Assembly (NCBI GenBank): GCA_963575745.1
Contig: CAUYUJ010000114.1
Location: forward strand, 124,001 to 188,000
DNA from: Prorocentrum cordatum
Taxonomy: Eukaryota
DNA: 64,000 nt
Reading direction: 5' to 3'
Part shown: in pieces, positions 13,201-62,002 of the stretch
Layout: each line of letters begins with the position of its first letter
How positions within the stretch are numbered: the first letter of the stretch is position 1
Notes under the pieces: model-generated
Seen by the model: the letters and a program-made list of their open reading frames with translations, nothing else
Told to the model about the DNA's origin: nothing
Database searches by the model: none
Program-made: the position numbers and the translations under genes

Positions 13201-18056
<4,856 letters not shown>

Positions 18057-18123
18057 TTGAGAAGTTCGTTAGCCGTAGGAACTGGACATGCCGCAATCCC
18101 AACATAAAACACTTTTCAAACAC
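18057..18123 (+). repeat. Left terminal inverted repeat
   Basis: First 14 bp are identical to the right TIR; similarity continues through GTAGGAAC to ACACTTTTCAAACAC. Confidence 0.85.
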
Positions 18124-19034
18124 CTTTCAAACAGTTACGACGCACATAGAAAAATCAAATCGCCTTCAAAAAATCGATTCTCCGATCGCTGCCACAGCGC
18201 GCCTGTCGCGCTGAAATCACACAAGAGATCGCGCGACGAGGCCGCGGCCCCGCAAACCGCGCAGCACTCATCGGGCGAGGTCCCAGCACAGACCCCTCAA
18301 CGCGCGAACGGCCATGGGGGCAAGCGCCGAACCAGAGCGCGCTGACGCGAGGTGGCCCTGCTGGCTTCGGGGGCCCAAGCTGCCTCTGGAAAGCCCCCGC
18401 CATCGAACGCGCAGATCGCGCGGGTGAGCCCTGGCTGCCTCTTGGGTGCGAGCCCGCCCTGCACTGAAACCCAGGGTTCGCCAAGTGATAAACCGCCGTC
18501 GGTTCCATCCGCGCACGCGCTGGCACCCAGCAAAACACGCCGCCATTGCGCAATTCACCCGACGCCGCCGCGCAGAAGGCATCGGGCAGCCGATGGGTCA
18601 CGACGGCCCGAACGGCCCCTCCGCGCGCGGGGGGCGGGCGTTGAGACCGATGCCGAGGACGCGCACCATGCGCGATATGTTGCGCAGACCCTCTCGGGTC
18701 CCACTGCGGGCCCACAGCGGCGCCCCGCGTTGACGGGCGCGGGGCGCCAACGAGGCCCGAACCCCCACTGGAAAGAAAGCGCCGGGCGCACCTTCGCGAC
18801 GGCGCGGATATGATTAGGCCCTCGCGCCACTGAACAGCCACGAAAACAAACATTCGCCCCGCCAGCGTCGCGAGCCCTCGGCGCGTTCGGCGGGGCGGGG
18901 CAGCGTAGTCGGGCAACCCCCAGATGGGCCCTGGGGGGTCGCAATGCAACTGCCCGATGTTTGGCGGGCGGTGCTGGTGTAGATGGGCGGTTCCACGCGG
19001 GCCGATCCGATGCTTCAGATGGGGGCGCATTGCG

Positions 19035-19084
19035 CTTGAGCCATTGGCGCCAGGCCACGCGCAGTGAGCCAAAATGGCGACGGA
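19035..19084 (-). other. Tandem relict dinoflagellate spliced leaders
   Basis: Minus strand TCCGTCGCCATTTTGGCTCA (19084-19065) matches the leader at 19/20. A second partial copy, TGGCTCAAG, ends 4 nt before an ATG at 19030. Confidence 0.75.
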
Positions 19085-20249
19085 GGAGGGGGGGGGAGAC
19101 AAAGGGGGCAAGCGGGAGACAAGATGGCGCGGCGATGGCGGAGACGGGCGACGGGGGATTGAGAAGCTGGACGGGGCGCGGGGAAGTACGAGGCCTACAT
19201 GGTGGAGGCTTGGAGTTGGGGGAGGGGGCGCGGTGGGGTCCTCCTGGCGCAGCCCTCCTCCCCCGCCCCCGCGGCTCCGCGGGAGTCCGCGAAACCCAGC
19301 GAGGCCCCAAGTGGGCGCCCAGCGCCGCCAACGCGGCCCCGCGCCCGACCACGCGGCTACCTGCAGCCTCCACGACGGCCCACTGCGACAGCGATGGCGG
19401 CCGCGACGGGCCCGCGGCGGCCTTGCGAAAACGCAGGGACGGCCCAACGGGGCTCTCGCGTGCGACCCAAGGCGCCCCCGAAACGATTACACTATCAAAA
19501 CACATCTAAGCGGCCATGCATAAACTACATAATCGGCCCGCGGTCTTAGGCGCATCCAAGACGGCCCAAGATGCATCCAAGATCGCCCCTGGATTGCTTA
19601 GGGGGGCACCCGCGAGACCCACGTTCAGACCCGAACCCTAAACACCCTGAGAAGCCCCAAGAACCCCCTGCGCGGCCCAGCCGAGGCCCCGCGAGCCCCT
19701 CGAGCAGCCACCAAAGGCCATCAGAGGCACCCCGAGCCGCACGTAACTAAACGCTCAAGAGGCCACCGCATGCCTCCAAGAAGACTTCAGGGAGCACCCA
19801 AAACATAGGAAACCACATGCGAAATGACGCCCCAGGAATCCTCCGGTAGCCAAGAAGCCCTCTGAAGGCCCACCCGCCCCCGCCTGGACACGCTCAGCAA
19901 ACGGCGTCGACATATCCAGCCCCTTATGTTTCTGCGTCGGTCCTAGACCACTAGATTGTATATTCATGTGTCCGACGCTTGTTTAACTTATGTGCCCTCC
20001 TCATCCCCCCCCCCCCCCCCTCCTCCTCACCCCATCCCTCCCCTGCCCTCCCCTTGCGCGCCCCTCGCCAGACATGCCTGTGGCAGGGCCTGGTGGGCCA
20101 ACGGGGCGGCGACACCAATGCTATATGGCGCAGGCGAGTGCGACGAGGATGGCGACAACGGTTCTCGCCCAGACCAAGGGCGCCGCAAGTTGCGACGCGG
20201 CGGCCACGAGTGCCCTCGCACTCAGGTCCACCGAGCGGCCCGACGAGCT

Positions 20250-22067
20250 TCACAGCAGCAGGTCGATGCCTTTGTCCACGAGCGCCCTCAGCCGACTGTC
20301 CACGCGATCCCAGCACTTCGCTTTCTGGATGGCCTTCTTCTCGCTGGCGAGAGACATCTTCAACATCGTGTCTTTCCCCTTGTACTTGATGATGGGCGCC
20401 ATGAGCACCCCCTCGCTGTGGCTGAGCTGCATGTCATCGCAGATGTTCTTGTGCTCCTGCTCGAGCACCTCGTTTGCCTGCATGCCGTAATGCTCCCGCA
20501 CCTGGTTCGCGGACTCCAGCTTTGCCTCCAGGACAGATCGAGCATCTTTTTAGGCGTCAACTCTGAGAACCAAGAGCGCGTTCGTCACAGCCTCAGTGAC
20601 CGCCTCGAGCGTGCCGTCGGTCAAGCAGTCCGACCACTTCTCGTGGCTGGGGCCCTGCAGCACACCGCGCCTGACGGCGCGGATGCACTCCGATTGCGAC
20701 TCGTGCTTATTGCACGGGCTGCCCACGAAGACCTTGATATCATCCATGGCGGACTCATGCAACCATGGAGCGTTCTCCTCGACGAAGGTCTTGGCCTCTG
20801 ACGTGATCTTGTCGGCGTCCGCGGGCAGCGTGACGACCTGCGCTATCAGCGCCTTCACCCCGGCCACTTTCTCACCAGAGCAAGCGAGGGCACGGAGGAG
20901 CTCGGTGCCGTGATCGCCCCTCAGCCTAAGTGCCGCGGTCGGGCCCCTGGCGATCAGCACCGCCATGCCCTCAGACACCCGCGCCACCTCGTCGATCCAA
21001 GTGGAGACGCTGCGCCACGACGAGTACAAGAGCGCGTCTTTCGGCAAGAACTCCAAAAGCTTGCCGACCACCGAGCAGAGGCAAGCATCCTTGGACTTGT
21101 TGTCTGGGCCCTCTACCGCGAACGTCAGGGAGGACACGATCTCGCGATTGACGCGGCTGACCTGGTTGGCCAATTCCTCCTGGTAGAGGTCGGGCGCGTC
21201 GGAGGAGGTGAGAACGGCGAGCACTTGCTGCACTAACCCGTCCCTCATCGGATATTCGACAATCTGCTGGCCCTGCACACTGGACATGAAGGGCTTCAAG
21301 ACCTCGCGGGACATGGCCGCGCCAACGCGCGAGGCGAGCTCGGTCGCGGCCTCGGCGGCGGCATCCCAAGGCGGCCTCGCCTTCAGGCCAGTGGTCTTCA
21401 AGACCTCGTAGAAACTCTTGTAACTATCGAGGACGTTGGCCATGCGCTGGAGGGCCTGGGCGTTCTGGAAGTTGTACTCGACGTGGTCGCCCTTCCGCAT
21501 CTCGGACATGAGCTTCGCCCCATCATCTGCCATCGTGCATATCATATTCTCCCAGTCCGTCACTGTGCCTACCTGGTCTATTACATGGGGGCCCGCCTTC
21601 GCGGGGAAGTAAGGGAATTGTTTCGGTGGTGCTCCCAGGCGGCCCCAGCTTGCCCTCTCCCTCACCCGTCCGCTCCGACTATCATGCCAGCGCCTTGCAT
21701 TGCGCTTCCCCGTCGTCGAATCTGGCCTGAGCCAGAAACGAATCGCGCAAGACAATGCGCCTGACTGGCCATGGCTCCTCCTAGCTCCTCCTACCATTTA
21801 CTACCCCATCCTACCTCACCCTCCCCTCTTCTTACTTCCCTCATATGTCTTTCTACCGCTCCCACCTCCTCCAACCTCCTCCAATCGCACCCTACCTGGT
21901 AGGGTGAGGTGGGGGGACGTCGGGCGAGGCGAACGTGCGGTGTGTGTGTGTGCGTGTGTGTGCGTGTGCGTGTGCGTGTGCGTGTGCGTGTGCGTGTGCG
22001 TGTGCGTGTGCGTGTGCGTGTGCGTGTGCGTGTGCGTGCGTGTGCGTGTGCGTGTGCGTGTGCGTAG

Positions 22068-22131
<64 letters not shown>

Positions 22132-25100
22132 TGTGCGTGAGTGCGCGCGCGCGCGGGGGTGGGGGCGGGGCGGGGTGGGGGGGGGGGGTGGGGGGGGGGG
22201 GGGGGGGGGGGGGGGCGCGATGAGGAAGTAATCGGGTGGCAGAGGCAGGAAGAGGCAGGGCGAGGTAGGGGGTAGGCCCTTAGGCGGGCGAGGGGTAACC
22301 AGAAGGAGGTAGAAGGATGCAGTGGGAGGCGAGAGGAGGCAGGGGGATGCAGGGGGAGGGTGGGCAGAGTAGGGGAAGGTAGGAGAAGGTAGGAGGAGGT
22401 GTGAACAGATCCTATCCCTGCCTGCCCCCCTCCACTTCCGCCTGCCCCCAGCAGCTCGCCCGACACTTGCGTCCCCCGATCCCCGTGTCCAGATGGTCCG
22501 TGCGAGAGCGGCTGCATCATGCTGGGTGCGATGTGGATTACCCTGAGGGCACTCGGAACCAACAATGCCCCTACTACCCCCCATCGGTTGGTACCCCAGG
22601 GAATCACCACGGATCCGGAGCGAGAATTCTGCTTGATGGTGCTGAACTCGTTCATGGCCCTGGTCTGGGCAACGATCTTGGTGTTCAGGGTGGTGGCCGA
22701 CCTGACTCCGTCGACGGCGCTAGTCATCTTCGCCGCGGCATTCACGCGCGTTGCCCTGGTCATGCGGAAGGGCACAATCATCGTCTTGAAGTACGGGACG
22801 TCCTTCAACAAAGCCCAGGTGTTGTAGGCGACGCCCTGCCACTGCGACCCACTCACATCTCGGGCTGGGACCTGCGAGATTGCGCCCAACGCCTTCGCCA
22901 GCACAGCATCCCGCGGCGAGACAAGGGCCCGAATCGCACGCGACGGCTTCACCACTTCAGCGATGCTGCTCGATACCCCATCGTCGATGTCGGTGGGCTG
23001 CGCAAGCATCATCTTCTCTGCCCTCCCGAGAAGACCCATCATCTTCGCCTGGCAATTGACGTCGATGGCGCGCACGATCGGCGCGATGAAGTACTGCACG
23101 CACCACCGCTCAACCTGCGCGCCGCACTGATCTAGCACAATGGGGATCTTGCACGCCAGGGGGCTCAGCGGATCGAATGTCGAGACCTCGGCGGCCCCCC
23201 TCAAGCCGTCGTCGGAACCCTGAGCAAGACACGAAACGCACAACAGAACACACATGCGCCTACCTGGCCCTGGCTCATCCTAGCTGTCCCGGCTCCTACA
23301 TCCTGCCACCTCATCTTACCTCACCCTCCCTCGCCTTCCATCCTCCTGTGTATTTCTACCGCTCCCACCTCCTCCAAACTACTCCAGACTCGCCCTACCT
23401 GCCCCCGCCTCATCCTGCCACCTCTTACCTCCTCCGACCTTCCCGTGCTCGACCAACCCTCCTCCGACATCCCCCATGCAGTACCCCGTCTGCCCCTTGC
23501 CTTCTCCGAGCCCCCTCTGCTTTACCATATCGTACCTCGCCCCATCCTGTCATATCCTACCTCATTCCACGTCCACATACCCCACCATACCTTCTCATGC
23601 ATCCTTTCGGCTCGCCCGACGTCTTCCGACCTCTTCCAACCTCCCCCCCCCTTTCCTACCCCCCTCCACTTTCCCCTACCTCATTGTACCTCCCCCCACC
23701 TACCTCTCCCCAACGCCTCCAAGCTCTGCATCCGTCCTCCGACCTCCTCCTGCACCCAGCCTACCTCCTACTACACCTGCAGACCTCCCCATGGCTCCTG
23801 GCTCCTCCAACTTCACCCTGCACCCTCCGATGTCCTCATACCTACTCGAGCCTGCCCTCGCCTACCTAGCATTTCCTCAATATACCCGTCCCCGACGTTA
23901 CCCCGCACCATCCTGACCCTCGCCCTGTCCATGTGAGACTGCCCGCGGGCCTCGTCGTCAACCAGCGACGTGTCCCACGGGAGGGCGGCGCGGAAGAACT
24001 CCTCGACGGAGCCGTTCTGGGTCACGATCTTCTCGCCGAGCTCCCGCAGCTCCCTCAGCGCCAAATTTATGGCCAGGGGCACGGGCAAGTTCGCGTCGGC
24101 AGTCACCAGGTCCTGGAGCTTCCTCGCGAGGTCGGCCTTCCCCCAAGCCATGATGTTCTCAAACTTCGAGCAGTCCTCCGCGACCTCGGCCAGCTCGAGC
24201 CGCTTCGTGAAGCGCCGGGCCTCCTCCCGCTTGGACGGGTCGTCATGCGCGGCCATATCATCGCGAAGCTTCTCCATCCTCTGGCGCCTGTGCCCGAAGC
24301 GCTTGGCACCGCTGGCAATCACGGTGAGGCTGGCGCCGTCGATTCTCGCAGTGACGGGGTCTGCAGCCTCGTGTGTACCAGCATCCGATGCGTCGTCCTG
24401 CGCGACGGCATCTCCCTGCGCGGATCGACCCTCCACAGGAGCAGCAATCGCCACCCATATGGCGATGGCCCGTAAGCCCGAGGACCATATATAAATATAG
24501 ATGCGCATGGTATTTGGATTCTTCCCCCGTAGAAGCTGGGCAAGCGCCGCGAGGGAAGAAGCGCGGGGGTAATGTGGAGGGGATAAGAGAGAGGTGGAAT
24601 GACGGAGGAATGCCAAGGTAAGTAACGGATAAGTGGAGGAAGGCCGTCGGGGAAGGACACCGCTCAAGACGAGGGCAACGCCCTACATATGAGCGGTGTG
24701 GTAATTGACGCTCCGCGGAGCGAACCTCCATGCTTCGCACGGTGTGGATCGCCACGCTGTTGACCGCGAGCTGGTTCCGCGAGCCCTTGAACGCGGGCGA
24801 CGCCGCCACGGACCCCTCGGCATCCTCGGCCGCGTCGGCGCCCCCCTCGAAGCTGGCGGCGTCGGCGCCTTCCGCGGCGGCCCCGTCAGCATCCTCCGCG
24901 GGCGGTCCGTCGTCGGGAGGAATGCCAGCCTCGATGTAGGCGATGATGTCCTCGTAGGTGTCGGTGCAAAGGCGCGGCTTCTTAGCCTCCTCGTGCTCCA
25001 ACCCAGAGGGCCGCAGCAGCTCCTCGTAGTATTCGCGGGCCTGGCTCTCGCGCCGCCGGTTTGCATGATGCAACTTGAACTCCGTATCGCAGGACTCGGC

Positions 25101-25856
25101 GTCGCTGGACAACTCGTGCGCGATGCCGATGCTGGGGTCGATATTGGGGGGGGCCCTGATTAGCGCGCCCTTGATCTTCTCGCCAGAGTGGGGGTCGACC
25201 AGGCCCTGCAACTTGCGACCCGCACCGCTGGGCGGCTTGTTGAATACCTTCTCGAACTCGAATGGGCGGAGGCCTCTGTACCGCACGATCGCTCTCACGA
25301 AGCTCTTGGTTGAGCGGGTCACGCTGGCTGGGTAAAAGGGCTGGATGTTCTTCTTCCTCCAGCGCATCGTGTCGGTGAACTCGGCGTCGAAAATTTGACA
25401 ATTGTCGCGCTGCTCGAGCACCTCCGAAGCGTTGCCGAAGTTCTCGTACCCAAACCAACAGTGATCCGTGCAATCTCCGCACGCAGGCCCCGCGGGTTTG
25501 GAGAGCCAGGTGCCGCCCCCGGCCTTCGTCTCCTCGTAAGCGCCCCACCTATCCACCTTATCGGGCGTGTCGCCGCAACTCTTGCGCATGCGCTTGACGG
25601 CGCCTGGCATCTTCAGGAAGGACCTCTTGGTAGCACGCATGGCGCTGGTGAGCTTCATGGGCTGGTCAGTATTCGTCTTCTTGATCGTCTTCTTGACGCC
25701 CTTGACCACCTCGTCGGCCCTCCCGTTCGCAGAGCCAGCCGTCGAGCCAGCCGCGCTGCGCGCGACCGAGAAGCCCGCGTCGGACGAAGCCCGCTGAAGC
25801 CGCCCAGCCTTAGGAGGCGGAGCGGACGAGTCGCCGCCAAGCCTCTCCGGGGCCAT
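20250..25856 (-). pseudogene. Four-exon cargo gene, ~1177-aa largely helical protein of unknown function, with one in-frame stop
   Basis: Exons 25856-24726, 24430-23951, 23219-22616 and 21568-20250 join in frame using GT, GC and GA donors and AG acceptors. GC3-rich codons; low-complexity introns. In-frame TAA at 20550-20552, after which the same frame continues for 100 codons. Confidence 0.65.
21940..22150. repeat. (GTGTGC)n/(GTGC)n microsatellite, intronic
   Basis: Directly visible. Confidence 0.95.
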
Positions 25857-29003: not shown

Positions 29004-29025
29004 TCCGCAACCGTCCTGGCTCAAA
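29004..29025 (+). other. Relict spliced leader upstream of the inner transposase
   Basis: TCCGCAACCGTCCTGGCTCAAA matches the leader at 16/22, all mismatches being transitions; 65 nt before the ATG at 29091. Confidence 0.55.
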
Positions 29026-29090
29026 CAATTTACATGTCGGCTCATGCCGCGTCTTGACTGGAGCCACGGTGCGCCACACATTGATTGTGT

Positions 29091-37557: not shown

Positions 37558-37592
<35 letters not shown>

Positions 37593-37760: not shown

Positions 37761-37797
<37 letters not shown>

Positions 37798-42288: not shown

Positions 42289-42330
<42 letters not shown>

Positions 42331-48003: not shown

Positions 48004-48019
48004 TGCAGGGGACGCATGC

Positions 48020-48262
48020 TGATGATGATGGTAATGGTGATGGTGATGATGCGGAGGATGATGATGATTATGATGATTATGAGGATGATGATTATGATGA
48101 TGATGCTGATGATGATGAGGAGGAGGATGGCAATGATGATGATGGTGGCGGTAACGGCGATGATGATGGCGATGCTGGTGATGATGACAATGATGACGAC
48201 GACGATGGTGACGATGACGATGACGACGATGATGGTGGTGATGATGACGATGATGATGATGA
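48020..48262. repeat. (GAT)n microsatellite
   Basis: Directly visible. Confidence 0.92.
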
Positions 48263-50789
48263 CGGGAGGAGGGAGGAGGGGGGAGGAAGGGGGGGGGGAA
48301 CGCGGGGCACCGTCTCTTCAAAACAAGGACCCAACACCACAGGATGGTTGGGAAAAATCTGCTTTCAATGTTTGTTGATGGGATTTTCCATTCTTAAATG
48401 GGATTTTCCTTTTTTTGGCTTCTGGGAAAAATCGACCCCCCGACTTGCCCCCGCCATCGGTCGAAAAAAAATCGGTGCGCGCGGCGCCTCCGATGGCTCG
48501 CGCGTCGCGGCCGATGGGGGCGGCTCACAGCCCAATCCGCCCGCCAAGATGTGGCACCGCGTCTGCAAGGGGGCAGGCGGAAGCCTTTCGTGCGCGCGTG
48601 ACTGCCCATGTTGCCCCTGAACCAAGGCCGATGCCGTAGGTCGGCGGATCGGCCGTGAACCTCAAGTTGCGAGATGGCGCGCGGGCGCCCCGACGGCGCC
48701 CATGCCGCTGCAGCCCAAGGTCCGCGGGGGGAGGGGGGGGCGCCCGAAATCTCCTATATGCCGACGCCCTGGAGGGCGCGACACCGACGCGTGACGTCGC
48801 GCCTGTCGGGCGCGCCCAGGGCGCCCCCATCGGACCTCCCTGGGCGCCACGTCGAGGTCATCCTGCGCTTCATCAGAGAGCCCATCGAGCGCCGTTGGCG
48901 CGCCCCCGACCGACGCGGCACCGCGCGCGGCATGGCGCGCCCATCGGCGCGACAGCACGGCCAGCTTGACATTGAAACGCGCCGAGAGGGGGAGACCCGT
49001 GCGAGCCCGAGCATGCTCAGGCGCGGCTACCAGCGAGCAATCCGACAAACGCCGATGCCGTGGTCTGCGTTCGTCGGGGGGCTTGTCGGGCCGTCTCGGG
49101 CGGCACCCAGACTACATGTCGGCCCCGTCTTGGGCGGCCCGAAAGCGCGCCCACCGCGCCTCGGCGTCGCCCCCGACGGGAGAAGAAGGCCGCCCCCGTC
49201 AGATGCTACCTCGTGGCCCCGCGGGCGGAGGGCGCAGGGGGTGGGTGCGCGGGGTGTGGTGGGGGCGGCGGGGGGGTGGGGGGAGGGGCTGCCGTTGGCG
49301 CGGCGCTGGGCAGCCCCGCGGTTGCCCGCGCGCGCCCCGCGATTGTCTGGCGCCGGAAGGGAACCCGAGACTGGCCTTTAGGAGCACCGCGGGTTCCCCA
49401 TGTTTACATCGGAGAACCAGCTGCTGACTTTGGAAATTGTCTTCATCGGGGGTATATCAATATCTCTCTGCAGGCTCTGGGCCGCGTCGGGGCCGCGCTG
49501 GGCAGCCCGACGCGGCCGCCCCCTGCGCCCCCCCCCCCCAGCGGGGCCCCGAAAGCCCCCCCACACACACGCACACACACACACACACACACACGCCGCA
49601 ACCCAAGCCCAGCCGATCGCAACTGCGGGTTGCACGACCTGCGCCCTGCTGCCCCTCGGGTTTATCTCCGCACCTTGTCGCGTCATTCCACGGCGGCCCG
49701 AGGGGGCGCCGCAAGGGCCAGAGGCGGCAACGCGCGCCATCGAATAGCAACCCGAGGGCTCCGACAACGGGTGCAACTTCTGCTTTCACTTGATGGCGCG
49801 CGGGCGGCGCCGCAATGACGCGCCGACAATGCCCGCGCCGCTCAGCGGTGCAACGTGCCAGCGCCGTTTGTCGGCACGGGGGGGGCTGGTCCAGGGGGGA
49901 ACCAGCCATGCCCAGGCGGTCACGCCCGCCCGACAACCCAATCATGGGGCGAAGCGCCCGCTCAGCTGACCCGCGGGGGCCGCACCGCGCTGTTCGCTAT
50001 GGGCACGTTGGGCGGGGGGGGGGGGGCGCAGGGGGGATGGGGCGCGCCCGAGGGCGCCCGGGGGGGGGGGGGGGCGGGGGCGCGGGGCACGGAGCGCGCC
50101 GAGAAGAGCAGAATGGCGGCGCACCCACGCCCGCCGAAGGGCAACGCCCCCGCGCCCGTTCAATGGCGCACGATGGTGCGCGGGCCGCGGTCGCGAAAAA
50201 ACAAACACCGCTGTGAGTCTCTGCAGCGTAACGCGACAGCCAGCCCCCGCAGCTGGCCAGCGGCATGGATACGCGCCGCCCCCGTGTTCACGGACCAGCA
50301 CGGCTGCGCAGCTGGTGTAAAAACATGATGCGCGCCCGCGCCTGTCCGAACCCCGCGGCGCGGCATGCCCGCGCCCGCGGGGCGAACGCGGGGGGGGGAC
50401 GCGCGCGCCATCTGCGATCGGGAGGAAGTGGGCAGGCGCTCCTGGGCCGCAGCGCGGCTATGCCATCACGCCGAGGCGCGGATCGAATTCGGCTCCTGCA
50501 GGAAGAAGTACGGCGCCAGCGCAACTGTTAAATTAAGCGCACTCACCCTTCAGGCCCGCGATATGAGAACGCATGTTCAAGCGCTGGGCGCGCGCAAAAG
50601 GCAAGCACATTTCCCATGTGCGCGCGCCCTCGATTGGACAGGGCGAGCGGCGCCCGCGTCGGCGATGCGATGTAAGCCCAGCATTCTACAGGGGGCGACG
50701 CGCCAGCGCCAATGATTTGCATCTGGGCGATGCGACAATCATGCCCCCGTGTGTTCCAGTGCACCCCTCACGCGCCTCTGGGCACCGCA

Positions 50790-53230
50790 TGGATCCCCGC
50801 CGAAGGCCCTCTTGGCGGCGTTCGCACGCCCCCCCCCCCCCCCCCCCCCCCGCCGTCGGCGGCCGCCCGTCGCCGCTTCGGGGAGGGGGGGGGGCGCCGA
50901 AAACCGCAGCTGCGGCGTTCGCATGCCCCCCCTCCCCCCCTACCCCCGTAGTATATCATCGCACATTTCGCGGGGCTCCACCGATGGCCTTAGTGGCGGC
51001 GTTCGCATGCACCCCCCACCCCCCCTCAGGCATGTCTGTGCAATCCTCGCAAGCTTCGTGGCCCCACAGGGGGCTCCACCGAAGGCCGCAGTGGCGGCGC
51101 TCGCGTGCCCTCCCACCCGCCCCACCCCCCACCCCACCCCCGCACCTCCTGTATTTCGGCATGCTCCACCGCGCGTTCCGCGGCCCCATCGGAGGCACCA
51201 CCGCAGGCAGTGGCGGCATTCGCATGCGTCCCGCATGCGTGCGCTTCGTGGCCCCATAGGGCGCCCCACCCTAGTGGCGGTGTTCGCATGCGCCCATCCC
51301 ATGCACTTCGGAACGCCAACGCACGCTTCGTGGACCCACATGAAGCCCAACCGAAGGCTGTACTTGCGGCGTTCGCACGCGCCCCCCCCCCCGCGCATTT
51401 CGGCCCACCACGCACGCGCTTCGTGGCGCCATAGGGAACCCCACCGAAAGCCCCAGGCTGCGTTCGCACAAACGGCCCCCGCCCCCCCCCCACCCCACCC
51501 CCCTCCCATGTATTAGGGCACACCCTCACACATGCTCGTTGCCCCATACAGAGCTCCACCGAATATCCCAGTGGCGGTGATCGCGCGCGCGCCCCCACCT
51601 CGCACTTTTCGCACCCCACGGACGGCCCCAGTGGCCGCGTTCGCACCCCCCCCCCCCCCACCCACGCAAAACAGAACACCCCATGCACGTCTCGCGGCCC
51701 CATAGGGGAGCTCCACCGAATGCCTCAGTGGCTGCGTTCGCACGCGCACCCCTCATTTCTTTCGGCGCACCCCTCGCACGTTTCGCGGCCCCATTTGGAG
51801 CTCCATTGAAAGCCTCAGTGGCGGCGTTCGCTTGCGCCCCCCCCCACCCACCCGCGTTTCGGCATGCCCATGAAGTTTCGTGGCGCCATATACAGTTCCA
51901 CCGAAAGTCTCTTTGGCGGCGTGGGCGTGCGCCTGTTTATCAAGCCTGCAACAGACCTCACGCGTTTCCTGGCCCTACAAGCAGCTCCACCGAGTGCCTC
52001 CGCGGCGCGGTGTTTGCATGCGCACTCGAATGATGCCGGCGCACACCCCGCATGTTTCGCGGCCCCATAGCTCCATCGAAGGCCCCGCTGGCACGCGCGC
52101 CCTGCCGACGTCGGCACGCCCCTCGCGCGCTTCGTGACCCCATAGGGAACTCCACCAAAGGCCTACTGGCGGCGTTCGCACGCGCCCACACCATGCATTT
52201 CGGCACACCCCTCGCGCGATTCGCGGTCGCATAAGGGCCCCACCGAAGGATCTCAGCGGCGGTGTTCGCATGCCCCCATCCCCCTCCCCCCCCAATGCAT
52301 TTCGGCGCGCCCGCGACGCGTTTCGCGGTTCCTCAGGAGGCTCCACCGAAAGCTTCAGGCTGTGTTTGCATGAGCCCCCCCCCCCCCTCCCCTGCGCAAC
52401 CCCGCGCGCCCCGCGCACGTCTCGCGCCTCCACAGGGAACCCCTTGCATGCACCATCGGCTGCGTTCGCATGCGCCCCGCCAGCATATTTTCGGCGAGCC
52501 CTTCGCGCGTCTCTGGGCCTCATGGGGGGCAGCACCGCATGCCCCAATGGCAGTGTGCACGCGTCACCGTCGCCACTGCTGGAGCGCGCCTCAAATGTTT
52601 AGCGGCCCCATGGGGAGCTCCGCCGAAAAGCCTCAGTAGCCAGCGGCGGCGTTCGCACGCGCCCCTCCACCCCCACCCCCCCCCCCACACGCGCCCATGC
52701 GCACGCGCCCTCCTCGCTGTGCTTGGCCCCATGGGGAGCTCAGCCGAAGGCCCCAATGGGTTCGCACCCGCCGTACTCGGCCCAGTTCGGCGCAGCCATC
52801 ACGCACTTCGGGGCCCTATACGGAGGCCCGTCGAACGTCCCAGCAGTAGCACCTGTCGCTCGCGCCTCGCGCAGCCAATTTCGGCACGCCCCATGCGCGT
52901 TTCGCAACCCAATGCGGACTTTCACAGAAGGTCCTTCGGCGCAGTCCGCACGCATCTCGCCCTCCGGTTTCCCGCGGCACCCGCCCCGCGCTTCTCGGCG
53001 CCAAATGGAATTTCACCCAAGCACACAGGAACACAATGCGCACGCGCCCCCCGCGCGCATATCGCCACACCCATCACGCGCTTCGGGGCCCGATGGAAAG
53101 AATCACGGAAAACCTTATGTGATGCATTTCCAACGCGCCCCACCTCCCCCAGCAGCCCACATTTGGTTCCCGCCGCATGCTGGCGGACCCTTTCCACGTT
53201 CACAAGTCTCACGCGCTTCGCGGCCCCGTG
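50790..53230 (-). repeat. Degenerate inverted array of the same ~90-bp satellite
   Basis: Recurring CGTGGCCCCATAGGGAGCTCCACCGAAGGCC..AGTGGCGGCGTTCGCATGC, the reverse complement of the 47-kb unit. Confidence 0.85.
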
Positions 53231-54137
53231 GCGCGTTCCACCGTGCCCGCCGCCGGCCCCGCGGTGCCCCCAACAGCGCGGCGCCGGGTCCTTCGCAAGG
53301 GTCGCCTTTTCAATGCGTGTTCATGATGTCCGAAGAATGATTCGGCATTTAAAGTCTAATGCCCTAGGGGTGTCTTGTGAATGTATACATGGCGCCCCAA
53401 ACAATGTCTGGATTATGCCAATTGCGATTCAATCAAATCGTTATTGCAAATGTATTAACTCAGCATGACATCAATGATTGAATAGTGTCGTCGCACATGC
53501 ATGCTCATAGCATACGTAAGACTAATGGTACTGCTACCGCAACGTTGTGGGTAACATGAGAATGGTTGCATGAAAGTCCCTCAAATGGTGGATACGCTGG
53601 TTTTTGACTATGTCCCCATGGCGCTGTAACAACTAATCCATAGTGTTCGAATACACTGGCGATGCTCAAAACCATATTTCGGCGTTGGGCCCTCGCTGTG
53701 GGATCGCAACACCCCGTGCCCCGCCCCCCCGCTGCCCCCCCCCCCCCCCTTCCCCCATCCCGATTCCTGCCGCACCATCCCTAGCACGAACCTGTCGTAA
53801 TGTGAACGTATCGTATTAAAACGACCGCGCAGTACATATCATCGTGTCAAGCGTACGCGCGTAAAACATATTGCGACTGCATGCGAAAAAGAATCGCACA
53901 CATGGGCTTATGAAGAGGTGGCATGGGACGGGAGGGTGTACAGCAACATCGCTGATGCGCCCTGGATTCTGCCGTGTCCTCCTCCTGTTCCTCCTGCTGC
54001 TCTTCCCCCTCCTCCTCCTCATCGCCCTTCTCCCCCCCCTCCCCCTTCCTCCTCCTCCCCCTTCCTCCTCCTCCCCCTCCTCCGCCTGGAGAGGGCGAGG
54101 TGGGGGTGGGGGGGTTGCAGGTTCGCCCGGAGCATGC

Positions 54138-54866
54138 TCAATGATCATCTCGGCCGCCGTGAGCCCGCACATGGTGGCGGACATCGCGTCTGACCTCCTG
54201 CGGGAGGCACTGGCTGGCGGCGTCGACCGCCCCCCCAGCGGTGCGCCATTTGTCGTAAGCTGAGTCACACTTCTCGGCGAACATGTCGAGCTCGCTCGAA
54301 CGCTTGCTGCACTCGCCCGAAAGGCGCTTGAAATCAAAAAACAAGTAGTCAACCTCCTGCCAACGACGGACGAGCGCGGCACTGACCCGCACACAATCAC
54401 CGTTGTTGTCGACGACGTCGAGCCCATCATCGTCGGGCACGAACTGCATCCTCGACCCTGGCTGCTGCGCGGGGCCCCGCGACTGACCGCGAGGCTCGCG
54501 ACCAGGGCTGCGCGAACGGTCGCCAGCAGGGCGAGGCGTCACCGCGGGCCCCGCTTGGAAATCGCAGCCGCCATGCGGGGCGCGAGCCCTCGCTGGCCCC
54601 TCGGCGATGCCAGCTCCGCGGAGTGGCGGAGTGGTGGGCGCGCCACGGCGCGGTGGAGTAACGGGCGCGCCTCGGCGCGGCAGCGCGCTCGGCGCACGCG
54701 GCGGGGCGCGGAACAACGGCGCACTCGGCGCAAGCGGCGGCGCCGCCTTCGACCGCGGACGCCAGGCTGGCGGGAGGGCGGACGACGGCGCACTCGGCGC
54801 ACTCGGCGCACGCTGAGCACGATCACACTTTGGCGGCGGCACCACAACGGGCCGCTGCGCCCGCAT
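54138..54866 (-). CDS. Hypothetical protein with Pro/Ala/Arg-rich N-terminus and helical C-terminal domain
   Basis: The C-terminal ~100 aa are protein-like (RMQFVPDDDGLDVVDNNGDCVRVSAALVRRWQEVDYLFFDFKRL...). Start uncertain. Confidence 0.4.
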   Translation of the reverse strand: MRAQRPVVVPPPKCDRAQRAPSAPSAPSSALPPAWRPRSKAAPPLAPSAPLFRAPPRAPSALPRRGAPVTPPRRGAPTTPPLRGAGIAEGPARARAPHGGCDFQAGPAVTPRPAGDRSRSPGREPRGQSRGPAQQPGSRMQFVPDDDGLDVVDNNGDCVRVSAALVRRWQEVDYLFFDFKRLSGECSKRSSELDMFAEKCDSAYDKWRTAGGAVDAASQCLPQEVRRDVRHHVRAHGGRDDH

Positions 54867-57422: not shown

Positions 57423-60400
57423 TCATTCACTCATCGGTTGCTTGCTATGCTGATTGCCCCGATCATGCAACCCCCGCCTGTCCTGAACAAGTCGGCCCCA
57501 ACTAAGCCTGTGCGGCTTGAGCTTCTGGAACACCGCGTGGGCGAGGAAGAAGCCCAGCGTGCCCGCGAGCTGGCTCGGGCTGTCTGAGCGGAGAGCCCTG
57601 CCGATGAACATGGCGACGACTTCGCCGCGAGCGATAGATTCATCATCACCCGCCCCGTGCTGGAATGATTTAGATACCTTCTCTATGTTCTTCCGCATGC
57701 GCTCGGAGGTCCTACCGAACGGGTTGCACAGACAGCGATTAGCAGCCCTGCATAGATAAGCCGCCAGTGGGGGAGGCGTTGCTCTTGCAACCTCTGGCAC
57801 GACGCTGTCCTGCACCACCCTGCACAATTCGCCGCACGTGGCGCCGATAAGGCCAAGCGTGAGAGACACGTCATGGTGTCCGCCGCGCGCTCTCAAAGAA
57901 GCAATATGCCCCGCCATCATCCTGCACTGCGGGAACCCCGCAGACATCATGTACAAGCGTCGCCCAAGCAAGGCGCTCCAATCTTCAGCGCCCCCACCAT
58001 CGTGATCACGGCGGAGGTGGTGAGGATATATGCCTTCGAGTGCCGCCAGGGGACCAGTCGGCGAAGTCTCCCACGAAGCATTCTCGGCGGCATCGGCATC
58101 GGATGATGCCAGCGCGGAAGCTCGACACCTCCGAAGCGCCTGCCGCGCTTCTCGACCTCTCGCGACGAGCTGATCTGGGCCGAGGAGTGCCAGCTGCATA
58201 TCCGACGACTGGCGAGCCACAAGCGCGGGGGCGGCGCGCGGCCGCGCACCGCCGCCACCGCCGAGCGGCCTCATGTCCCCTGCGTCCCGTGCATCGTTGG
58301 CTTTCTCTGCCAACTCCTTGTAGTTCTGGAGGCCCTCTTCAACGAGCTCCGCGCACCTCTCGGACAACTCCCTGCACGATGGGCGAGCCGCCCCCCGCAG
58401 CCCCGCCGCCCGTTCGCCACGAAAGGCATCCCAGGACGATATATTGCGAGACTTCGGCTTCGGTTCGCCCTGGGCCTGGTGGCCCTGGTCGTCGTCGCCG
58501 CCCCCACTGGCGGCACGTCCACGCTCGGCTCTGGCAATCGATCTATGTCCCGACCAGCCCTTGGCCGCAGCCTCCAACTGCTCATTGATCCAATATGTGT
58601 TCAGGCCATACATATCAACAACTCGTCGTTGCACGGGCCCCCCCACCTGGAAACGCATGTTTTTTCTGATGGCGGTATTCGATTTGAACTGTCTCGTCTG
58701 CCATGAGAAGCGCAGTGCTCCTCAGGTCGGCCTGGGTACTGGGCGAAAGCAACTGCTTATCGTGGAAAAGAACAAACTGCATAGACCATGTATTCATCCG
58801 TTTACCGCACTCGGCATCTCTCACCACCTCTGTTGCGAGCTCAGGTATGCTGATGATCCCGAACGTCTTGTACGGATAATTGCAGTGATCGGTGCGCAGC
58901 TCGTGCATGATGCAGAGGCCGCGCGACAGCATCATAAACACCTTGACCTGCCACTCCTTAGCCATGTGCGTTGCTGGAATAATTTGCCACGCATCTGAAT
59001 CTGACATCAGCCTCCACGTCTCGTCGATGAACGCACTCTCCACGATGCCGTCGCACGCCAAAGGTAGCCGAAGGTCCCGCCTCGGAACGGAGCCCAAGTC
59101 GACGCCGCTTGTTGAACCCTCCTGGCGAGCAGCTTTGGACTCGATATCCGTTTGCTTCTTCTCCCATCTATCTCCAGCAATGTACAACAGTTCCCCCATG
59201 ACATTGATGTGCGGGGCAAGGGTTATGAACAAGGTAGCGCTATCGGCAAGCACGCTGCCAGAATCAATACATTCGCATACTGACCGTCGAAATATGTGTT
59301 GCTCTCTCCTTTTTTCCTCTTCGGCGTTGACGTCGTCCTTTTTCCCCTCATGGTCTGGCATCTTGACGCCGGGCTCAGTGTCGCCATCGATGCCCTCGGC
59401 TCTCTCACAATCACCCTCCTCTCCAGGGGCGTCCTCGAGAGGTAATGGTAATGGCCGATCGCCATCGTCGGCGGCGTCGCCCACGGCGGGCGGCCCGCGG
59501 CCAGCGCGCCTGGGAATGCTGCAAAGCGTTTCCGCAAAATCCCGATACGCGGTGGAGAACACGCCGAAAACCAATTCCATAATGCAGATCCATTGGACGG
59601 CATCTTCGCAATCAGTCCAGTTGCGGCTGGGGAATGATCCAGGGCCGTTCCAGACTAATGCTCGGGTCCCTCTGGTAACAAGCTGCTTGATGATGGCATC
59701 GTCGCTCTCGCCCCCAGTCGAGTGCACGATTACCTTTCCTTTGCAATATTCCCATGGCCCGTTGAACAGCGCAAGCAACTCGCTCCTGCGAAAAGCCTTA
59801 TCTGGCGTATCGGGTAATACACTGTTCAACGCTCGAACGTTCCACAGAGACTCGCGATGGCTCAGGGCGTGCCTCACGATGGTCGCCTCGCAGAGCGCGC
59901 GACGAACCGCACCGCGAAATATCTTCAAGTGGTTCTGAAACGATAGCGACAAGGACACGTGCTTCATTTTGGACACGACTGTCTTCATCAAGCCGCATAC
60001 ATCTTCCCTCGCATTACAGCACTTGTGCACGAAACACTGCGTGCGAAGAGCAGCAGCGGCAGCCTCCTTTTCTCGTGTAAGTGCTCGTGCTCGCTCAGCC
60101 CGTTCGATAGCTTGGTCCCCGTCGCTGGCCACGCACCGCTGCTGCCGCTTGAACTTCGGGCCAACGTCATCCAAGTTCAACAGCTGCTGCAACAAGTCTG
60201 AACATTAGTAGAAATTCGATGCTGTCGTTCGGGCCATGCACAGAAGGGGCAAGGGCGGCACCCATGTGAATAAGACCCATTTCGAATGCATGCGAACCAA
60301 TACCCCGACCACGATCTCGGACTGGAATAACTTAGCAACCCCAGTGTCCCGTTCGCCAACCGTCCTAGTGGCATAATTGGGCACCTGCTCGAGCCTCTCC

Positions 60401-61341
60401 AAGACCTCGTCGGGCAGACCGTACAACCGATCCTGGTCGATGAGCGTCATTGCCATTGGGGTTTCGTCGCGCCGCCAGCACGTAGATAGAGTATGCAGCA
60501 TCCTGTCGGCAGCTGCCACTACAGTCTCACATAGCTTAGTGATGTTATCCCGCATCTGCCAATAAAACAGCAACAGCGAGATGCATGCCAATCGGGAGGC
60601 TGTGGAAAGCAATGCTCGTCTGGAGACACCGAACCGCTTAGCATGATCAGTGTGCGCGTTGACTTTCCGCCATGCGCATCGCCTGGACACGATATCATCC
60701 ACGACCTTGCCGAAATTCATATCTTTGGTTATGCTGTCCAGGCCCCCACTCGCCATGAGTTTCACGATGATGGCGAATACCTTGGGCGTCCCACTGAGAA
60801 TCCGATGGCTATCTGGCAGCGGCCGGCTGGGCTGGCCTGCGCTCCCTGGGGCAGGCTCATCGGGGGGTGGGGGTGGGCGGGCGCCGCTTTCACTCAAATC
60901 CGCAATTTCTGGCAGCAGGCAGCGCGACTGGCCCGACGCACTTTCCACGAGACGTTTTGATTGCTCTGCGATCTCCCTCAACATTTCCCTGGCAACCCCG
61001 GCGGACACGACGGCTGGAGCAGGAGGCGCGCTTTCCGAAGCTGCTGGACGGGCTGCTTCCAAGACGGGCTGAGCAATTGACACTGCGCCCTCACATGAAC
61101 GCGGCTCCGCATCTGGTGGCTCATTCCCCCCGTCTGGCCGTCCGCCACTCTCACTCGCGGCGGGAGACACCCATCCAATCAATAATTCATCAACGTCCTG
61201 CTCAGGACCAGCTGCTGCAACAGATTGCCCGAAATCCTCGACGAGCTCGCTGCTGACATCAATATGTTCGAACAGGCCGTCGCAGCTGGAAGAACCATCT
61301 GAAGCCAACCAATCATCTAATCGAATTCTGGGATCGACCAT
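57423..61341 (-). pseudogene. hAT-like DDE transposase with an HMG-box-like segment, disrupted by one stop and one frameshift
   Basis: ATG at 61341. ORFs 60205-61575 and 58615-60195 share a frame across TAA 60205-60207; frameshift near 58660. Motifs WRRDETP (D1), VASDGD (D2), CFVH (CxxH), FPSRNW, TVQIEYRH (E), followed by SSWDAF...ELSERCAEL...YKELAEKAN (HMG-like). Confidence 0.7.
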
Positions 61342-61357
61342 GCTGCCAGGATAATAT

Positions 61358-61380
61358 TTTGAGCCAAAAACGGTTACGGA
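61358..61380 (-). other. Relict spliced leader 16 nt upstream of the outer transposase ATG
   Basis: TCCGTAACCGTTTTTGGCTCAAA vs TCCGTAGCCATTTTGGCTCAAG. Confidence 0.7.
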
Positions 61381-61841
61381 TTGATTGAACCGCCTTGTAT
61401 ATTTTCGTTTTCGTTTGCCACTGTGGCTATACACCCTACCGTCCCGCGTCCACTCATCACAAGTACATGCAACCGTTCCTCTTCGCACCTGGATGAGCAC
61501 GCAAGCATTCCTCATACGGCCATACAAGCAATCCTCATAAGTCAATCGTCCCGTTGCATACGGCCATACAATCATTCCTCATAAAGGTCATACAAGCATT
61601 CCATACACGCGCGTGCCACCGATGCGGGCTTATCGGTGCTGCTGCCCCCCTCGCTCGTGAACAATAAAGGGTCAAGCTGTGGGCCCGTCCGAGCCCCCCC
61701 TGATGCTGTCCTTCACGAGGCCGCTTCCCAATCCTCCCAAACAGTGCCCTTCACGAGGCCCCCCCCCCCCCTACTCCGATGGGCAGCGTCCCCCCACTAG
61801 ACTGACCGCTGATGGTATCGATTGTTCGCCCTCACCCCTAC

Positions 61842-61919
61842 GTGTTTGAAAAAGTGTGTGAAGTTTTTTTTTTTTGAAAAATTGTATCAGATCTGTTCCT
61901 ACGCAAACGAACTTCTCAA
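61842..61919 (-). repeat. Right terminal inverted repeat
   Basis: Reverse complement TTGAGAAGTTCGTTTGCGTAGGAAC...ACACTTTTTCAAACAC matches the left end. Confidence 0.85.
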
Positions 61920-62002
61920 TGCTACTACTACCACTACTACTAGTACTCCCACTCCGACTGCTACTGCTACTACTACTACTACTGTTACTTCTACTTCTAC
62001 TT

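What the first reader, a model, noticed from the sequence alone, without database searches (positions are those of the whole stretch)
18049..61927. Candidate 44-kb giant cargo-carrying hAT-like DNA transposon
Seen: inverted ends 43,863 bp apart (14 bp perfect, degenerate to ~70 bp), an exact 8-bp flanking duplication TGCTACTA that includes a non-consensus G of the microsatellite, a DDE transposase reading inward from the right TIR, and several spliced genes inside. Known: 8-bp TSDs and the D-D-CxxH-RW-E motif order typify the hAT superfamily, whose members are usually a few kb. Inference: the whole block moved as one unit, making it a giant gene-carrying eukaryotic transposon family in a dinoflagellate that I cannot match to a described element.
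Basis: partly seen in the sequence, partly recalled or inferred. Interest (0 to 1): 0.92.

Follow-up and report, generated by a model that had tools for sequence, protein, structure and literature searches.

The report
Giant dinoflagellate transposon, size unproven
A 44-kb block in a dinoflagellate genome splits a simple repeat and has the matching inverted ends, duplicated target and (broken) transposase gene of a jumping element from an uncatalogued family, but nothing yet shows that all 44 kb ever moved together or that it carries ordinary host genes.

Summary
A 43,863-bp block (18057-61919) interrupts one (CTA)n array. Its ends are inverted: 14/14 bases, then 24/26, with a shared subterminal 9-mer found nowhere else in the window. 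The flanking duplication is TGCTACTA, but a 15-bp TIR with a 6-bp GCTACT duplication fits equally well.

A ~1,380-codon gene reads inward from the right end. It has an invariant D-D-CxxH...E pattern and 760 relatives, none with a Pfam family. This copy is broken by one TAA and one frameshift.

"hAT" is not supported: no hAT Pfam domain appears in 34 family members, and the motifs and 8-bp duplication are shared with MuDR, P, Kolobok and Dada. The protein also has an HTH-like stretch and an HMG-box-like domain.

Inside the block are:
- a companion gene near the left end, also linked to the transposase at a second Prorocentrum cordatum locus;
- a second, spliced, transposase-like gene;
- other orphan ORFs;
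- about 13 kb of arrays and high-depth repeats.

None of 465 ORFs reaches a Pfam cut-off, so known-function cargo is not shown.

No second full copy or empty site could be examined. One insertion bounded by cognate ends is very likely (~0.9). Movement of the whole 44 kb as one unit is open (~0.45).

The parts
13201..18056 (.). Left part of the interrupted (CTA)n/(TAC)n microsatellite, which is the target
   Evidence: TRF finds period 3, 1,616 copies, 80% matches. GC is 41%.
18049..18056 (+). Left copy of the target-site duplication TGCTACTA (alternative reading: GCTACT at 18050-18055)
18057..18082 (+). Left terminal inverted repeat: 14-bp perfect core at 18057-18070, extended match to 18082
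18114..18133 (+). Two subterminal copies of TTTCAAACA, a candidate transposase-binding repeat
   Evidence: 3 copies in the window, all subterminal; 0.13 expected by chance.
   Evidence: 1 match against 0.00 expected.
20346..21797 (-). Gene A, last exons: an orphan companion gene of the transposase family
   Evidence: P0002 (P. cordatum, a second locus) residues 164-487 match 21530-20346 at 45% identity, E 2e-79. The same model also holds transposase pieces in the same order and on the same strand. GC3 is 0.80.
21819..25859 (-). Further coding-like minus-strand ORFs (21819-23279, 23816-24682, 24261-25859), possibly upstream exons of gene A. No relatives were searched for.
   Evidence: Composition. 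GC3 is 0.74-0.75. No Pfam match.
29085..33856 (+). Gene B: a spliced, roughly 1,480-codon second transposase-like gene. Exons end or begin at 30230/30578 and 31363/31757. Introns are 30231-30577 and 31364-31756, both GT...AG|G.
   Evidence: P0158 (1053 aa) runs without a gap across all three ORFs, and P0157 matches at E 1.9e-127. The D/D/..H../E-like motifs were read. The Atlas gives weak leads to hAT-type families at 0.76-0.78.
38059..41646 (+). Gene C: coding-like plus-strand ORFs (38417-39172, 39142-40146, 40660-41646), orphan
   Evidence: GC3 0.69-0.78. No Pfam match.
42088..54700 (.). Repeat-rich zone: purine-rich simple repeats (42486-42894), a 17-bp array (45172-46383), a 90-bp array (47033-48003) with inverted copies near 51.0-51.85 kb, and stretches covered by contigs of very high word depth
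   Evidence: In one search, bins 48300-48755, 51036-52859 and 53316-53771 have depth 4e3-9e4, against 1-12 over 55.6-62 kb. The tool warns that depth is not a copy number.
57426..61575 (-). Transposase gene, broken. The three ORFs are 61575-60208, 60204-58618 and 58721-57426. There is a TAA at 60207-60205 and a frameshift at a G7 run near 58640. Catalytic candidates are D (60468-60466), D (60123-60121), CxxH (60036-60025) and E (58680-58678). An HMG-box-like stretch lies at about 58469-58272.
61843..61851 (-). Right subterminal copy of TTTCAAACA
61895..61919 (-). Right terminal inverted repeat: 14-bp perfect core at 61906-61919
61920..61927 (+). Right copy of the target-site duplication TGCTACTA (alternative reading: GCTACT at 61921-61926)
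61922..62820 (.). Right part of the interrupted (CTA)n microsatellite

Best explanation
The block 18057-61919 is one insertion of a large, multi-gene, TIR-bounded cut-and-paste DNA transposon into a (CTA)n microsatellite of a Prorocentrum-like dinoflagellate.

THE ENZYME. Its transposase is about 1,380 aa and belongs to a large family with no Pfam model. It has an invariant D...D...CxxH...W...E pattern, an HTH-like stretch before the catalytic region, and an HMG-box-like domain and a Cys cluster after it.

INFERRED MECHANISM. The transposase binds the 14-26-bp TIRs and the TTTCAAACA subterminal repeats. It excises the element by double-strand breaks, probably through a hairpin on the flanking DNA, as in the other C/DxxH transposases. 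It then joins the 3'-OH ends to staggered cuts 8 bp (or 6 bp) apart in the target, and repair of those cuts gives the duplication.

THIS COPY. It cannot make its own enzyme, because it has one TAA and one frameshift. It would depend on a paralogue acting in trans; at least one diverged version exists in a sequencing run.

SHOWN. The ends, the duplication, the split array, the transposase family and its conserved residues, the breaks in the gene, and the linkage of gene A with the transposase at a second locus.

INFERRED. The catalytic chemistry, the binding sites, and my lean (about 0.45-0.5) that most of the 44 kb was already between the ends when the element landed. On that lean, genes A, B and C belong to the element or to an older nested element, and are not captured host genes.
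For: 1. ENDS AND TARGET. The TIR arms lie exactly at the two break points of a single microsatellite, and removing the block plus one duplicate restores the phase. The subterminal 9-mer is unique to both ends.

2. NO INNER ENDS. Nothing inside the window resembles either terminus. blastn of 400 bp from each end finds only poly-C matches, and there is no 14-mer match at up to 2 mismatches.

3. TRANSPOSASE. phmmer of the read-through 987-aa ORF finds 760 proteins at E<=1e-3 and 49 at E<=1e-30. The best hit (7.8e-109) matches query 283-979 in one stretch, across the stop. D89, K134, D204, C233 and H236 are invariant in 34 sequences, and W327, W372, W582 and E685 are present in at least 88%. C233 lies 29 aa after the second D, within the 15-45 aa reported for hAT and MULE (PMC5499845, passages).

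4. THE BREAKS ARE MUTATIONS. The TAA aligns with Y/F/W in relatives. The frame change sits at a G7 run, where dropping one G would restore the family consensus. A run-X1 contig over that spot has no gap.

5. BOTH HALVES BELONG TO ONE FAMILY. P0002, from another P. cordatum locus, strings together transposase pieces (66% and 48% identity) and gene A (45% identity, E 2e-79) in the same order and on the same strand.

6. OTHER VERSIONS EXIST. Run-X1 contigs over 55.0-61.85 kb include identical pieces and pieces 4-6% different. One of these reads a sense codon where the window has TAA.

7. YOUTH OR SELECTION. About 1.6 nonsense changes are expected per 1% neutral divergence in the transposase, and 1 is seen. 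About 1.5 are expected in gene B, and 0 are seen. No LTR-like direct repeats or convincing TSD-flanked nested TIR pairs were found inside.
Against: - Only one copy was seen. No second 44-kb copy, no empty site and no read spanning a junction could be examined, because no genome is held and the scans of other collections were empty.
- About 13 kb of the interior is arrays and stretches covered by very high-depth contigs. Such sequence can arrive or expand after insertion, or mislead an assembler.
- Gene B looks like a transposase of another family (hhalign against the terminal family gives probability 0.3%). That is what a nested second transposon would look like.
- A published review notes that cut-and-paste efficiency drops beyond about 6 kb of cargo (PMC6431247, passages).
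- If the copy was already defective when it landed, the youth argument says nothing about the time since insertion.
Confidence: 0.5

Rival explanations
1. An ordinary-to-large element, roughly 10-15 kb and made of the transposase end plus the gene A end, inserted into the microsatellite. It later swelled in place to 44 kb through nested insertion of another transposon (gene B, perhaps gene C) and through insertion or expansion of satellite arrays.
For: - Gene B is a second transposase-like gene unrelated to the terminal one. Its GC3 is TE-like, 0.61-0.64, the same as the transposase.
- The 42-55 kb zone is arrays and high-depth repeats.
- P0002 joins transposase and gene A pieces in one gene model at another locus, which is easier if they lie closer together there.
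- P. cordatum is reported as repeat-rich, with signs of active transposition (PMC10666404, passages).
Against: - No TIR pair with a flanking duplication and no LTR pair delimits a nested element.
- The transposase has only one nonsense change and one frameshift, and gene B has no nonsense change. There may therefore have been little time for about 30 kb of later insertions, unless the genes are under selection or the copy was defective on arrival.
- Mean introns of 4.7 kb in this species (PMC10666404, passages) mean that the P0002 model does not fix the distance between its parts.
Confidence: 0.33
2. The ends and the insertion are real, but the interior length is an assembly artefact. A misjoin or collapse through the high-copy repeats of a hybrid assembly stitched unrelated sequence between the two ends.
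For: - The interior holds arrays and stretches where 1,368 of 10,098 laid contigs fit two places.
- If the window comes from the published P. cordatum assembly, that assembly is a hybrid PacBio/Illumina MaSuRCA build with RNA-based scaffolding (PMC10666404, passages).
Against: - The window has no N.
- Both junctions carry the same duplication and repeat phase, so the two ends belong to one site.
- Transposase-family sequence at the right and its companion gene A at the left lie in the expected order and strand.
Confidence: 0.08
3. The two ends belong to two separate short elements, each with its own partner end. Alternatively, the inverted match and the duplication are chance products of microsatellite sequence.
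For: - Two random 8-mers from the two arrays match 5-7% of the time.
- Short inverted matches are common in 64 kb.
Against: - There is no other copy of either terminus in the window.
- Given their orientation, each partner would have to lie between the two ends.
- The arms sit exactly at the array break points, and the subterminal 9-mer is shared.
- The 8-mer is a rare variant: 22 of 4,849 and 7 of 894 positions.
Confidence: 0.04

Closest known systems
hAT superfamily (Ac, Hermes). The cargo-bearing example is ToxhAT, 14.3 kb, in wheat-pathogenic fungi (PMC6737239, passages).
   Same: - Short TIRs with subterminal repeats.
- A possible 8-bp duplication.
- D-D-CxxH-W-E order with a long insertion between the second D and E.
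- Weak protein-language-model leads to DUF659 and FAM200-ZBED5 RNase-like clusters at 0.75-0.76.
   Different: - No Dimer_Tnp_hAT, DUF659, DUF4371 or DUF4413 Pfam match in 34 members at E<=5.
- No BED finger. Instead there is an HTH-like stretch and an HMG-box-like domain.
- The protein is about twice the usual length.
- The TIR starts TTGAG and the duplication is TGCTACTA, which do not fit the hAT end and target consensus as I recall them.
- The element is three times the size of ToxhAT.
MuDR/MULE superfamily, including Pack-MULEs, and bacterial IS256
   Same: - The (C/D)xxH motif 15-45 aa after the second D, and a conserved W.
- Duplications of 8-10 bp (PMC5499845, passages).
- A tendency to carry foreign DNA between the TIRs (PMC6431247, passages).
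   Different: - No MULE or Transposase_mut Pfam match.
- No IS-family NCBIfam match.
- TIRs are much shorter than the >100 bp typical of MULEs.
- The D-to-E distance is about 480 aa.
- Pack-MULEs are reported not to exceed about 7 kb (PMC6431247, passages).
Dada superfamily (Kojima and Jurka 2013, PMC3706591, passages)
   Same: - No Pfam model (PMC5751038, passages).
- C/DxxH group.
- Protein of about 1,400 aa.
- Present in an alveolate relative, Perkinsus.
- Duplications of 6-7 bp that can look like 8 bp.
- Targets read CT|GC..., and here the 6-bp reading gives CT|GCTACT.
- Inserts into multicopy sequence.
   Different: - Dada has no TIRs and targets small-RNA genes. Here there are none (Rfam 0 matches, tRNA 0).
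- Dada spacing is D-68-D-176-E, against D-115-D-481-E here.
- Dada has DxxH, not CxxH.
- Dada has a conserved N-terminal CCCC finger, which I did not see.
- Dada elements are 4.7-11 kb.
- Direct sequence comparison was not possible, because Dataset S1 cannot be read.
Known giant eukaryotic mobile elements: Starships, Teratorn, Mavericks/Polintons, and enlarged 16-20-kb CACTA elements of Chondrus (PMC6431247, passages; search listings)
   Same: Tens of kilobases in size, several genes between defined ends, and a flanking duplication.
   Different: - Those elements move by tyrosine recombinase, by piggyBac plus a herpesvirus, or by integrase plus polymerase B. None of these was found here.
- Their mobility as units rests on many copies or on presence/absence polymorphism. 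Neither is available here.

Membership tests
hAT superfamily | 8-bp target-site duplication | tested here: inconclusive
   An 8-bp TGCTACTA with a 14-bp TIR and a 6-bp GCTACT with a 15-bp TIR fit equally well. Only one copy is available.
hAT superfamily | DDE triad with a C/DxxH motif and a conserved W | tested here: met
   D89, D204, C233 and H236 are invariant in 34 sequences, and W and E685 are conserved. [quoted passage not shown]
hAT superfamily | hAT-marking Pfam domains: Dimer_Tnp_hAT PF05699, DUF659, DUF4371, DUF4413 (list from PMC5751038, passages) | tested here: not met
   0 of 34 members match at E<=5. 0 of 30 top relatives match at E<=1e-3. The window ORFs give 0 matches.
hAT superfamily | N-terminal BED zinc finger | tested here: not met
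   There is no Pfam match. The region before the catalytic core gives only weak HTH-type hits (HTH_8 in 2 of 34 members; MntR HTH at E 0.53).
hAT superfamily | Terminal YARNG and target nTnnnnAn consensus (recalled from memory, not from a call) | tested here: not met
   The TIR begins TTGAG, or ATTGAG in the other reading. The duplication is TGCTACTA.
hAT superfamily | Fold like Hermes (RNase H-like core with an all-alpha insertion domain) | not testable with these tools
PDB sequence searches found no transposase.
MuDR/MULE | MULE (PF10551) or Transposase_mut (PF00872) domain | tested here: not met
   There is no IS256-type NCBIfam hit either.
MuDR/MULE | 8-10-bp duplication and long (>100 bp) TIRs (PMC5499845, passages) | tested here: inconclusive
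   The duplication length is compatible if it is 8 bp. The TIR identity is only 14-26 bp, with weak similarity to about 85 bp.
Dada | 6-7-bp duplication, no TIRs, insertion in small-RNA genes | tested here: not met
   A 6-bp reading is possible. However, clear TIRs are present, and no RNA gene lies at the site.
Dada | Sequence similarity to Dada transposases; CCCC and CCHC fingers | not testable with these tools
   The Dada protein alignment (Dataset S1) cannot be read. No conserved N-terminal Cys pattern appears in 7 aligned N-termini. A C-x5-C-x-C cluster is conserved at the C-terminus.
Giant cargo-carrying transposon (mobile as one unit) | Defined ends plus a flanking duplication around the whole block | tested here: met
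Giant cargo-carrying transposon (mobile as one unit) | Further copies, or presence/absence polymorphism, of the whole unit | not testable with these tools
   No genome is held. The one run that holds the stretch is kept as short contigs, and only 48.3-62 kb could be laid.
Giant cargo-carrying transposon (mobile as one unit) | Passenger genes of recognisable host function | tested here: not met
   0 of 465 stop-to-stop ORFs of at least 60 aa inside the block reach a Pfam cut-off: 105, 125, 235. Short exons and Pfam-less 'dark' genes could still be missed.

The most novel reading that the evidence does not exclude
This is the first glimpse of a class of giant (about 44 kb), multi-gene cut-and-paste transposons in dinoflagellates. 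They would be driven by a so far undescribed DDE superfamily of the C/DxxH group, with an HTH, a long insertion domain and an HMG box. That superfamily is widespread in dinoflagellate transcriptomes. The elements would travel with a conserved companion gene and a second transposase-like gene, and would prefer a rare CTGC variant inside (CTA)n arrays.
Probability: 0.3. Interest if true: 0.85.

Novelty: new variant of a known kind. Interest (0 to 1): 0.6.

Why it matters
Dinoflagellate genomes are huge and repeat-rich, and most of their genes are unannotated. Their autonomous DNA transposons are barely described.

If it moved as a unit, this TIR element would be about three times longer than the largest cut-and-paste elements named in the passages I read: ToxhAT at 14.3 kb, and the 16-20-kb CACTA elements of Chondrus. 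It would show that DDE transposition can move tens of kilobases in nature, and it would offer a route for block-wise gene movement and genome growth in dinoflagellates.

Independently of size, the transposase family is worth describing. It has 760 representatives at 50% clustering, no Pfam model and no solved relative. It would also improve repeat masking and gene prediction in dinoflagellates, because P0002 is a gene model stitched together from pieces of such an element.

Tried and rejected
- WHOLE-GENOME CENSUS OF THE TERMINI. Not possible: no genome is held.
- SCANS OF OTHER COLLECTIONS.
- SEQUENCING RUNS. One holder, X1, has share 0.35 and is kept as contigs. No RNA holder is listed. Among the pieces shown after laying 48300-61964, none bridges 61919/61920, and no joint or loose end at the terminus was listed. 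Most rows (11,990 pieces and 461 loose ends) were not shown, so this says nothing either way. X2 and X3 are other organisms and matched only low-complexity stretches.
- STRUCTURE PREDICTION.
- SIX-FRAME PFAM SCAN. I replaced it with stop-to-stop ORFs.
- WORD-INDEX SEARCH. A search with alignment A1 returned nothing.
- GENE B AS A DISTANT PARALOGUE OF THE TERMINAL TRANSPOSASE. hhalign gives probability 0.3%, so I rejected this at the level these tools can see.
- GENE A AS A COPY OF THE TRANSPOSASE C-TERMINUS. I rejected this: no BLASTP similarity within the window, and only P0002 of 151 stored proteins matches gene A.
- THE TAA AS PART OF A 75-nt INTRON. I considered this from the sequence and rejected it, because relatives have residues throughout that stretch.
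- RFAM, tRNA AND PROMOTER SCANS. Nothing relevant.
- EARLIER NOTES OF THIS SCAN. None bear on this genome or these sequences.
- LITERATURE. Searches for a giant TIR transposon, or for this family, in dinoflagellates found no such description in the library. That is not proof of absence. Repbase entries and the supplement of PMC3706591 could not be seen.

Full report
WHAT IS THERE

TTGAGAAGTTCGTT lies at 18057-18070 on the plus strand and at 61906-61919 on the minus strand. These are the only two matches in 64 kb at up to two mismatches, and nothing closer than 3-4 mismatches lies elsewhere. The arms continue at 24 of 26 positions and then weakly to about 85 bp.

The 9-mer TTTCAAACA occurs three times in the whole window: twice 58-77 bp inside the left tip and once 69-77 bp inside the right tip, in inverted orientation. 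The chance expectation is 0.13.

TGCTACTA flanks both ends. Both flanks are one (CTA)n array, 13201-18056 and 61922-62820. Taking out the block and one duplicate restores the repeat phase.

Short inverted matches are common in 64 kb (334 seeded pairs), and two random 8-mers from the arrays agree 5-7% of the time. What makes this more than chance is position. The 14 bases just inside each of the two array break points are reverse complements. The duplicated 8-mer is also a rare variant: 22 of 4,849 positions on the left and 7 of 894 on the right.

There is one caveat. A18056 pairs with T61920, so a 15-bp TIR with a 6-bp duplication GCTACT fits equally well.

THE TRANSPOSASE

Reading inward from the right end on the minus strand are three ORFs: 61578-60208, 60204-58618 (same frame, separated by a TAA) and 58721-57426 (another frame).

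With the TAA read as X, phmmer against 1.84 billion representatives finds 760 proteins at E<=1e-3, 351 at E<=1e-10 and 49 at E<=1e-30. The best hit (7.8e-109, 35% identity) covers query 283-979 in a single stretch, across the stop.

- The TAA aligns with Y/F/W in relatives, so it is a nonsense mutation and not an intron.
- The closest relatives run straight on into the third ORF.
- The frame change sits at a run of seven G near 58640. One G fewer would give the family consensus.
- A short-read contig of run X1 covers that spot without a gap.

The gene is therefore about 1,380 codons long and broken twice.

In an alignment of 34 sequences, D89 (YDETPM), K134, D204 (CTDxxxA), C233 and H236 are invariant. 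W327, W372, W582 and E685 (IExxHAxxRR) are present in 88-97% of sequences. The spacing is D-115-D-481-E, with CxxH 29 residues after the second D.

Before the core lies an HTH-like stretch (weak hits only). After the E, a profile of the five closest sequences hits HMG boxes as its three best solved-structure matches: NHP6A at E 0.004, TFAM at 0.046 and NHP1 at 0.075. A conserved C-x5-C-x-C cluster follows.

IS IT hAT?

No Pfam family is found in the window ORFs or in 30 top relatives. Even at E<=5, none of the 34 members shows a transposase family. There is no IS family in NCBIfam and no transposase among solved-structure sequences.

The only pointers toward hAT are weak protein-language-model leads at 0.75-0.78.

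Dada (PMC3706591, passages) shares several traits:
- it has no Pfam model;
- its protein is about 1,400 aa;
- it occurs in Perkinsus;
- its 6-7-bp duplications can look like 8 bp;
- its targets read CT|GC....

But Dada lacks TIRs, targets small-RNA genes and has much shorter spacing between catalytic residues. Its alignment could not be read.

I therefore file the enzyme as a DDE transposase of the C/DxxH group from an undescribed or Pfam-less family, not as a hAT.

WHO HAS IT

The only word-index hit is a P. cordatum protein. Of 20 relatives looked up, 6 carry names: 4 are from Amphidinium carterae and 2 from 'Pyramimonas sp. CCMP1952', the latter at 82-86% identity. The rest come from unnamed Logan, ENA and JGI contigs of 2.6-7.5 kb.

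Window GC fits P. cordatum, reported as 59.7% (PMC10666404, passages).

THE INTERIOR

Coding-like ORFs form three groups.

Gene A (minus strand, 20.3-25.9 kb).
- Its last exons match residues 164-487 of P0002 at 45% identity (E 2e-79).
- P0002 comes from another P. cordatum locus. It also contains transposase pieces (66% and 48% identity) in the same order and on the same strand.
- No other stored relative has gene A.
- This ties the left part of the block to the transposase family and argues that the two ends are not from unrelated elements.

Gene B (plus strand, 29.1-33.9 kb).
- It is three ORFs that one 1,053-aa relative, P0158, covers without a break.
- Its two introns have GT...AG|G borders.
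- Its motifs (CDGSPQ, TTDMGTE, GWRHTWD, ESPHARAKR) and its Atlas leads suggest a second transposase. It is not detectably related to the first: hhalign gives probability 0.3%.

Gene C (plus strand, 38.0-41.7 kb) is an orphan.

GC3 is 0.58-0.68 for the transposase, 0.61-0.64 for B, 0.74-0.80 for A and 0.69-0.78 for C.

From 42 to 55 kb lie simple repeats, a 17-bp array and a 90-bp array with inverted copies. Run-X1 contigs of very high word depth also lie there. The tool warns that depth is not a copy number.

Of 465 stop-to-stop ORFs of at least 60 aa in the block, none reaches a Pfam cut-off. For one search, I dropped 21 of 166 ORFs that were translations of the microsatellite.

Cargo of known function is therefore not shown. 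Short exons could be missed, since the mean exon is 240 bp in this species (PMC10666404, passages).

DID 44 KB MOVE AS ONE?

For:
- a single split array;
- cognate ends with no inner ends;
- family sequence at both extremes;
- no LTR pair or duplication-flanked TIR pair marking a nested element;
- little decay. About 1.6 nonsense changes are expected per 1% neutral divergence in the transposase and 1 is seen. About 1.5 are expected in gene B and 0 are seen.

Against:
- only one copy was seen;
- a second transposase-like gene and about 13 kb of repeats are what nested insertion, or a misassembly, would leave;
- a review notes falling efficiency beyond about 6 kb of cargo and names 16-20 kb as enlarged for CACTA elements (PMC6431247, passages);
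- the copy may have been defective on arrival.

Run-X1 contigs show that other versions of the right 7 kb (55.0-61.85 kb) exist at 4-6% difference. One of them has a sense codon in place of the TAA. Nothing could be learned about the rest of the block.

VERDICT

One insertion bounded by cognate ends is very likely (about 0.9). A transposon that was about 44 kb when it landed is my leading reading, at about 0.45-0.5. In-place growth of a 10-15-kb element follows at about 0.33, and an assembly artefact of the interior at about 0.08.

The finding is real and of good interest. The labels 'hAT' and 'cargo-carrying' are not earned, and the label 'giant' is unproven.

Noticed in passing
window 2849-6675: A tandem duplication of roughly 2 kb. 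ORFs 3527-4525 and 5446-6603 are 98% identical in protein, and 2849-4495 and 5566-6675 are 99% identical. No Pfam family.
   Followed up: no
window 19030-19083 (- strand): A relic-like dinoflagellate spliced leader, CCGTCGCCATTTTGGCTCACT, with 3 mismatches to the consensus I recalled; 0.00 expected by chance. About 15 bases downstream there is a second partial copy ending GGCTCAAG, seen by eye. This suggests a retroposed transcript fragment within 1 kb of the left TIR.
   Followed up: partly
window 13201-18056 and 61922-62820: The target (CTA)n array totals about 5.7 kb, which is unusually long for a trinucleotide repeat. The insertion sits at one of its rare CTG variants.
   Followed up: partly
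window 47033-48003 and 51000-51850: A 90-bp-unit array with inverted copies about 3 kb away. Run-X1 contigs on these stretches have word depth up to about 88,000, and weaker matches occur in two runs of other organisms. This is probably an abundant satellite-like repeat family.
   Followed up: no
proteins P0016 and P0017 (EukProt 'Pyramimonas sp. CCMP1952'): Two short fragments labelled as a green alga are 86% and 82% identical to this dinoflagellate transposase. The cause could be contamination, a mislabelled transcriptome or a recent transfer. It was not resolved.
   Followed up: no
window about 33300-33700 (C-terminal part of gene B): The gene B family profile gives weak, sub-significant hits to the PARP1 zinc-finger domain in 5 distinct PDB sequences, at E 0.13-0.65. 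This may be a zinc-binding DNA-recognition module.
   Followed up: no
protein P0002 (P. cordatum gene model, another locus): This annotated 818-aa 'protein' is stitched from transposase fragments, gene A exons and about 330 residues of low-complexity sequence. It shows that elements of this family are being annotated as host genes.
   Followed up: partly
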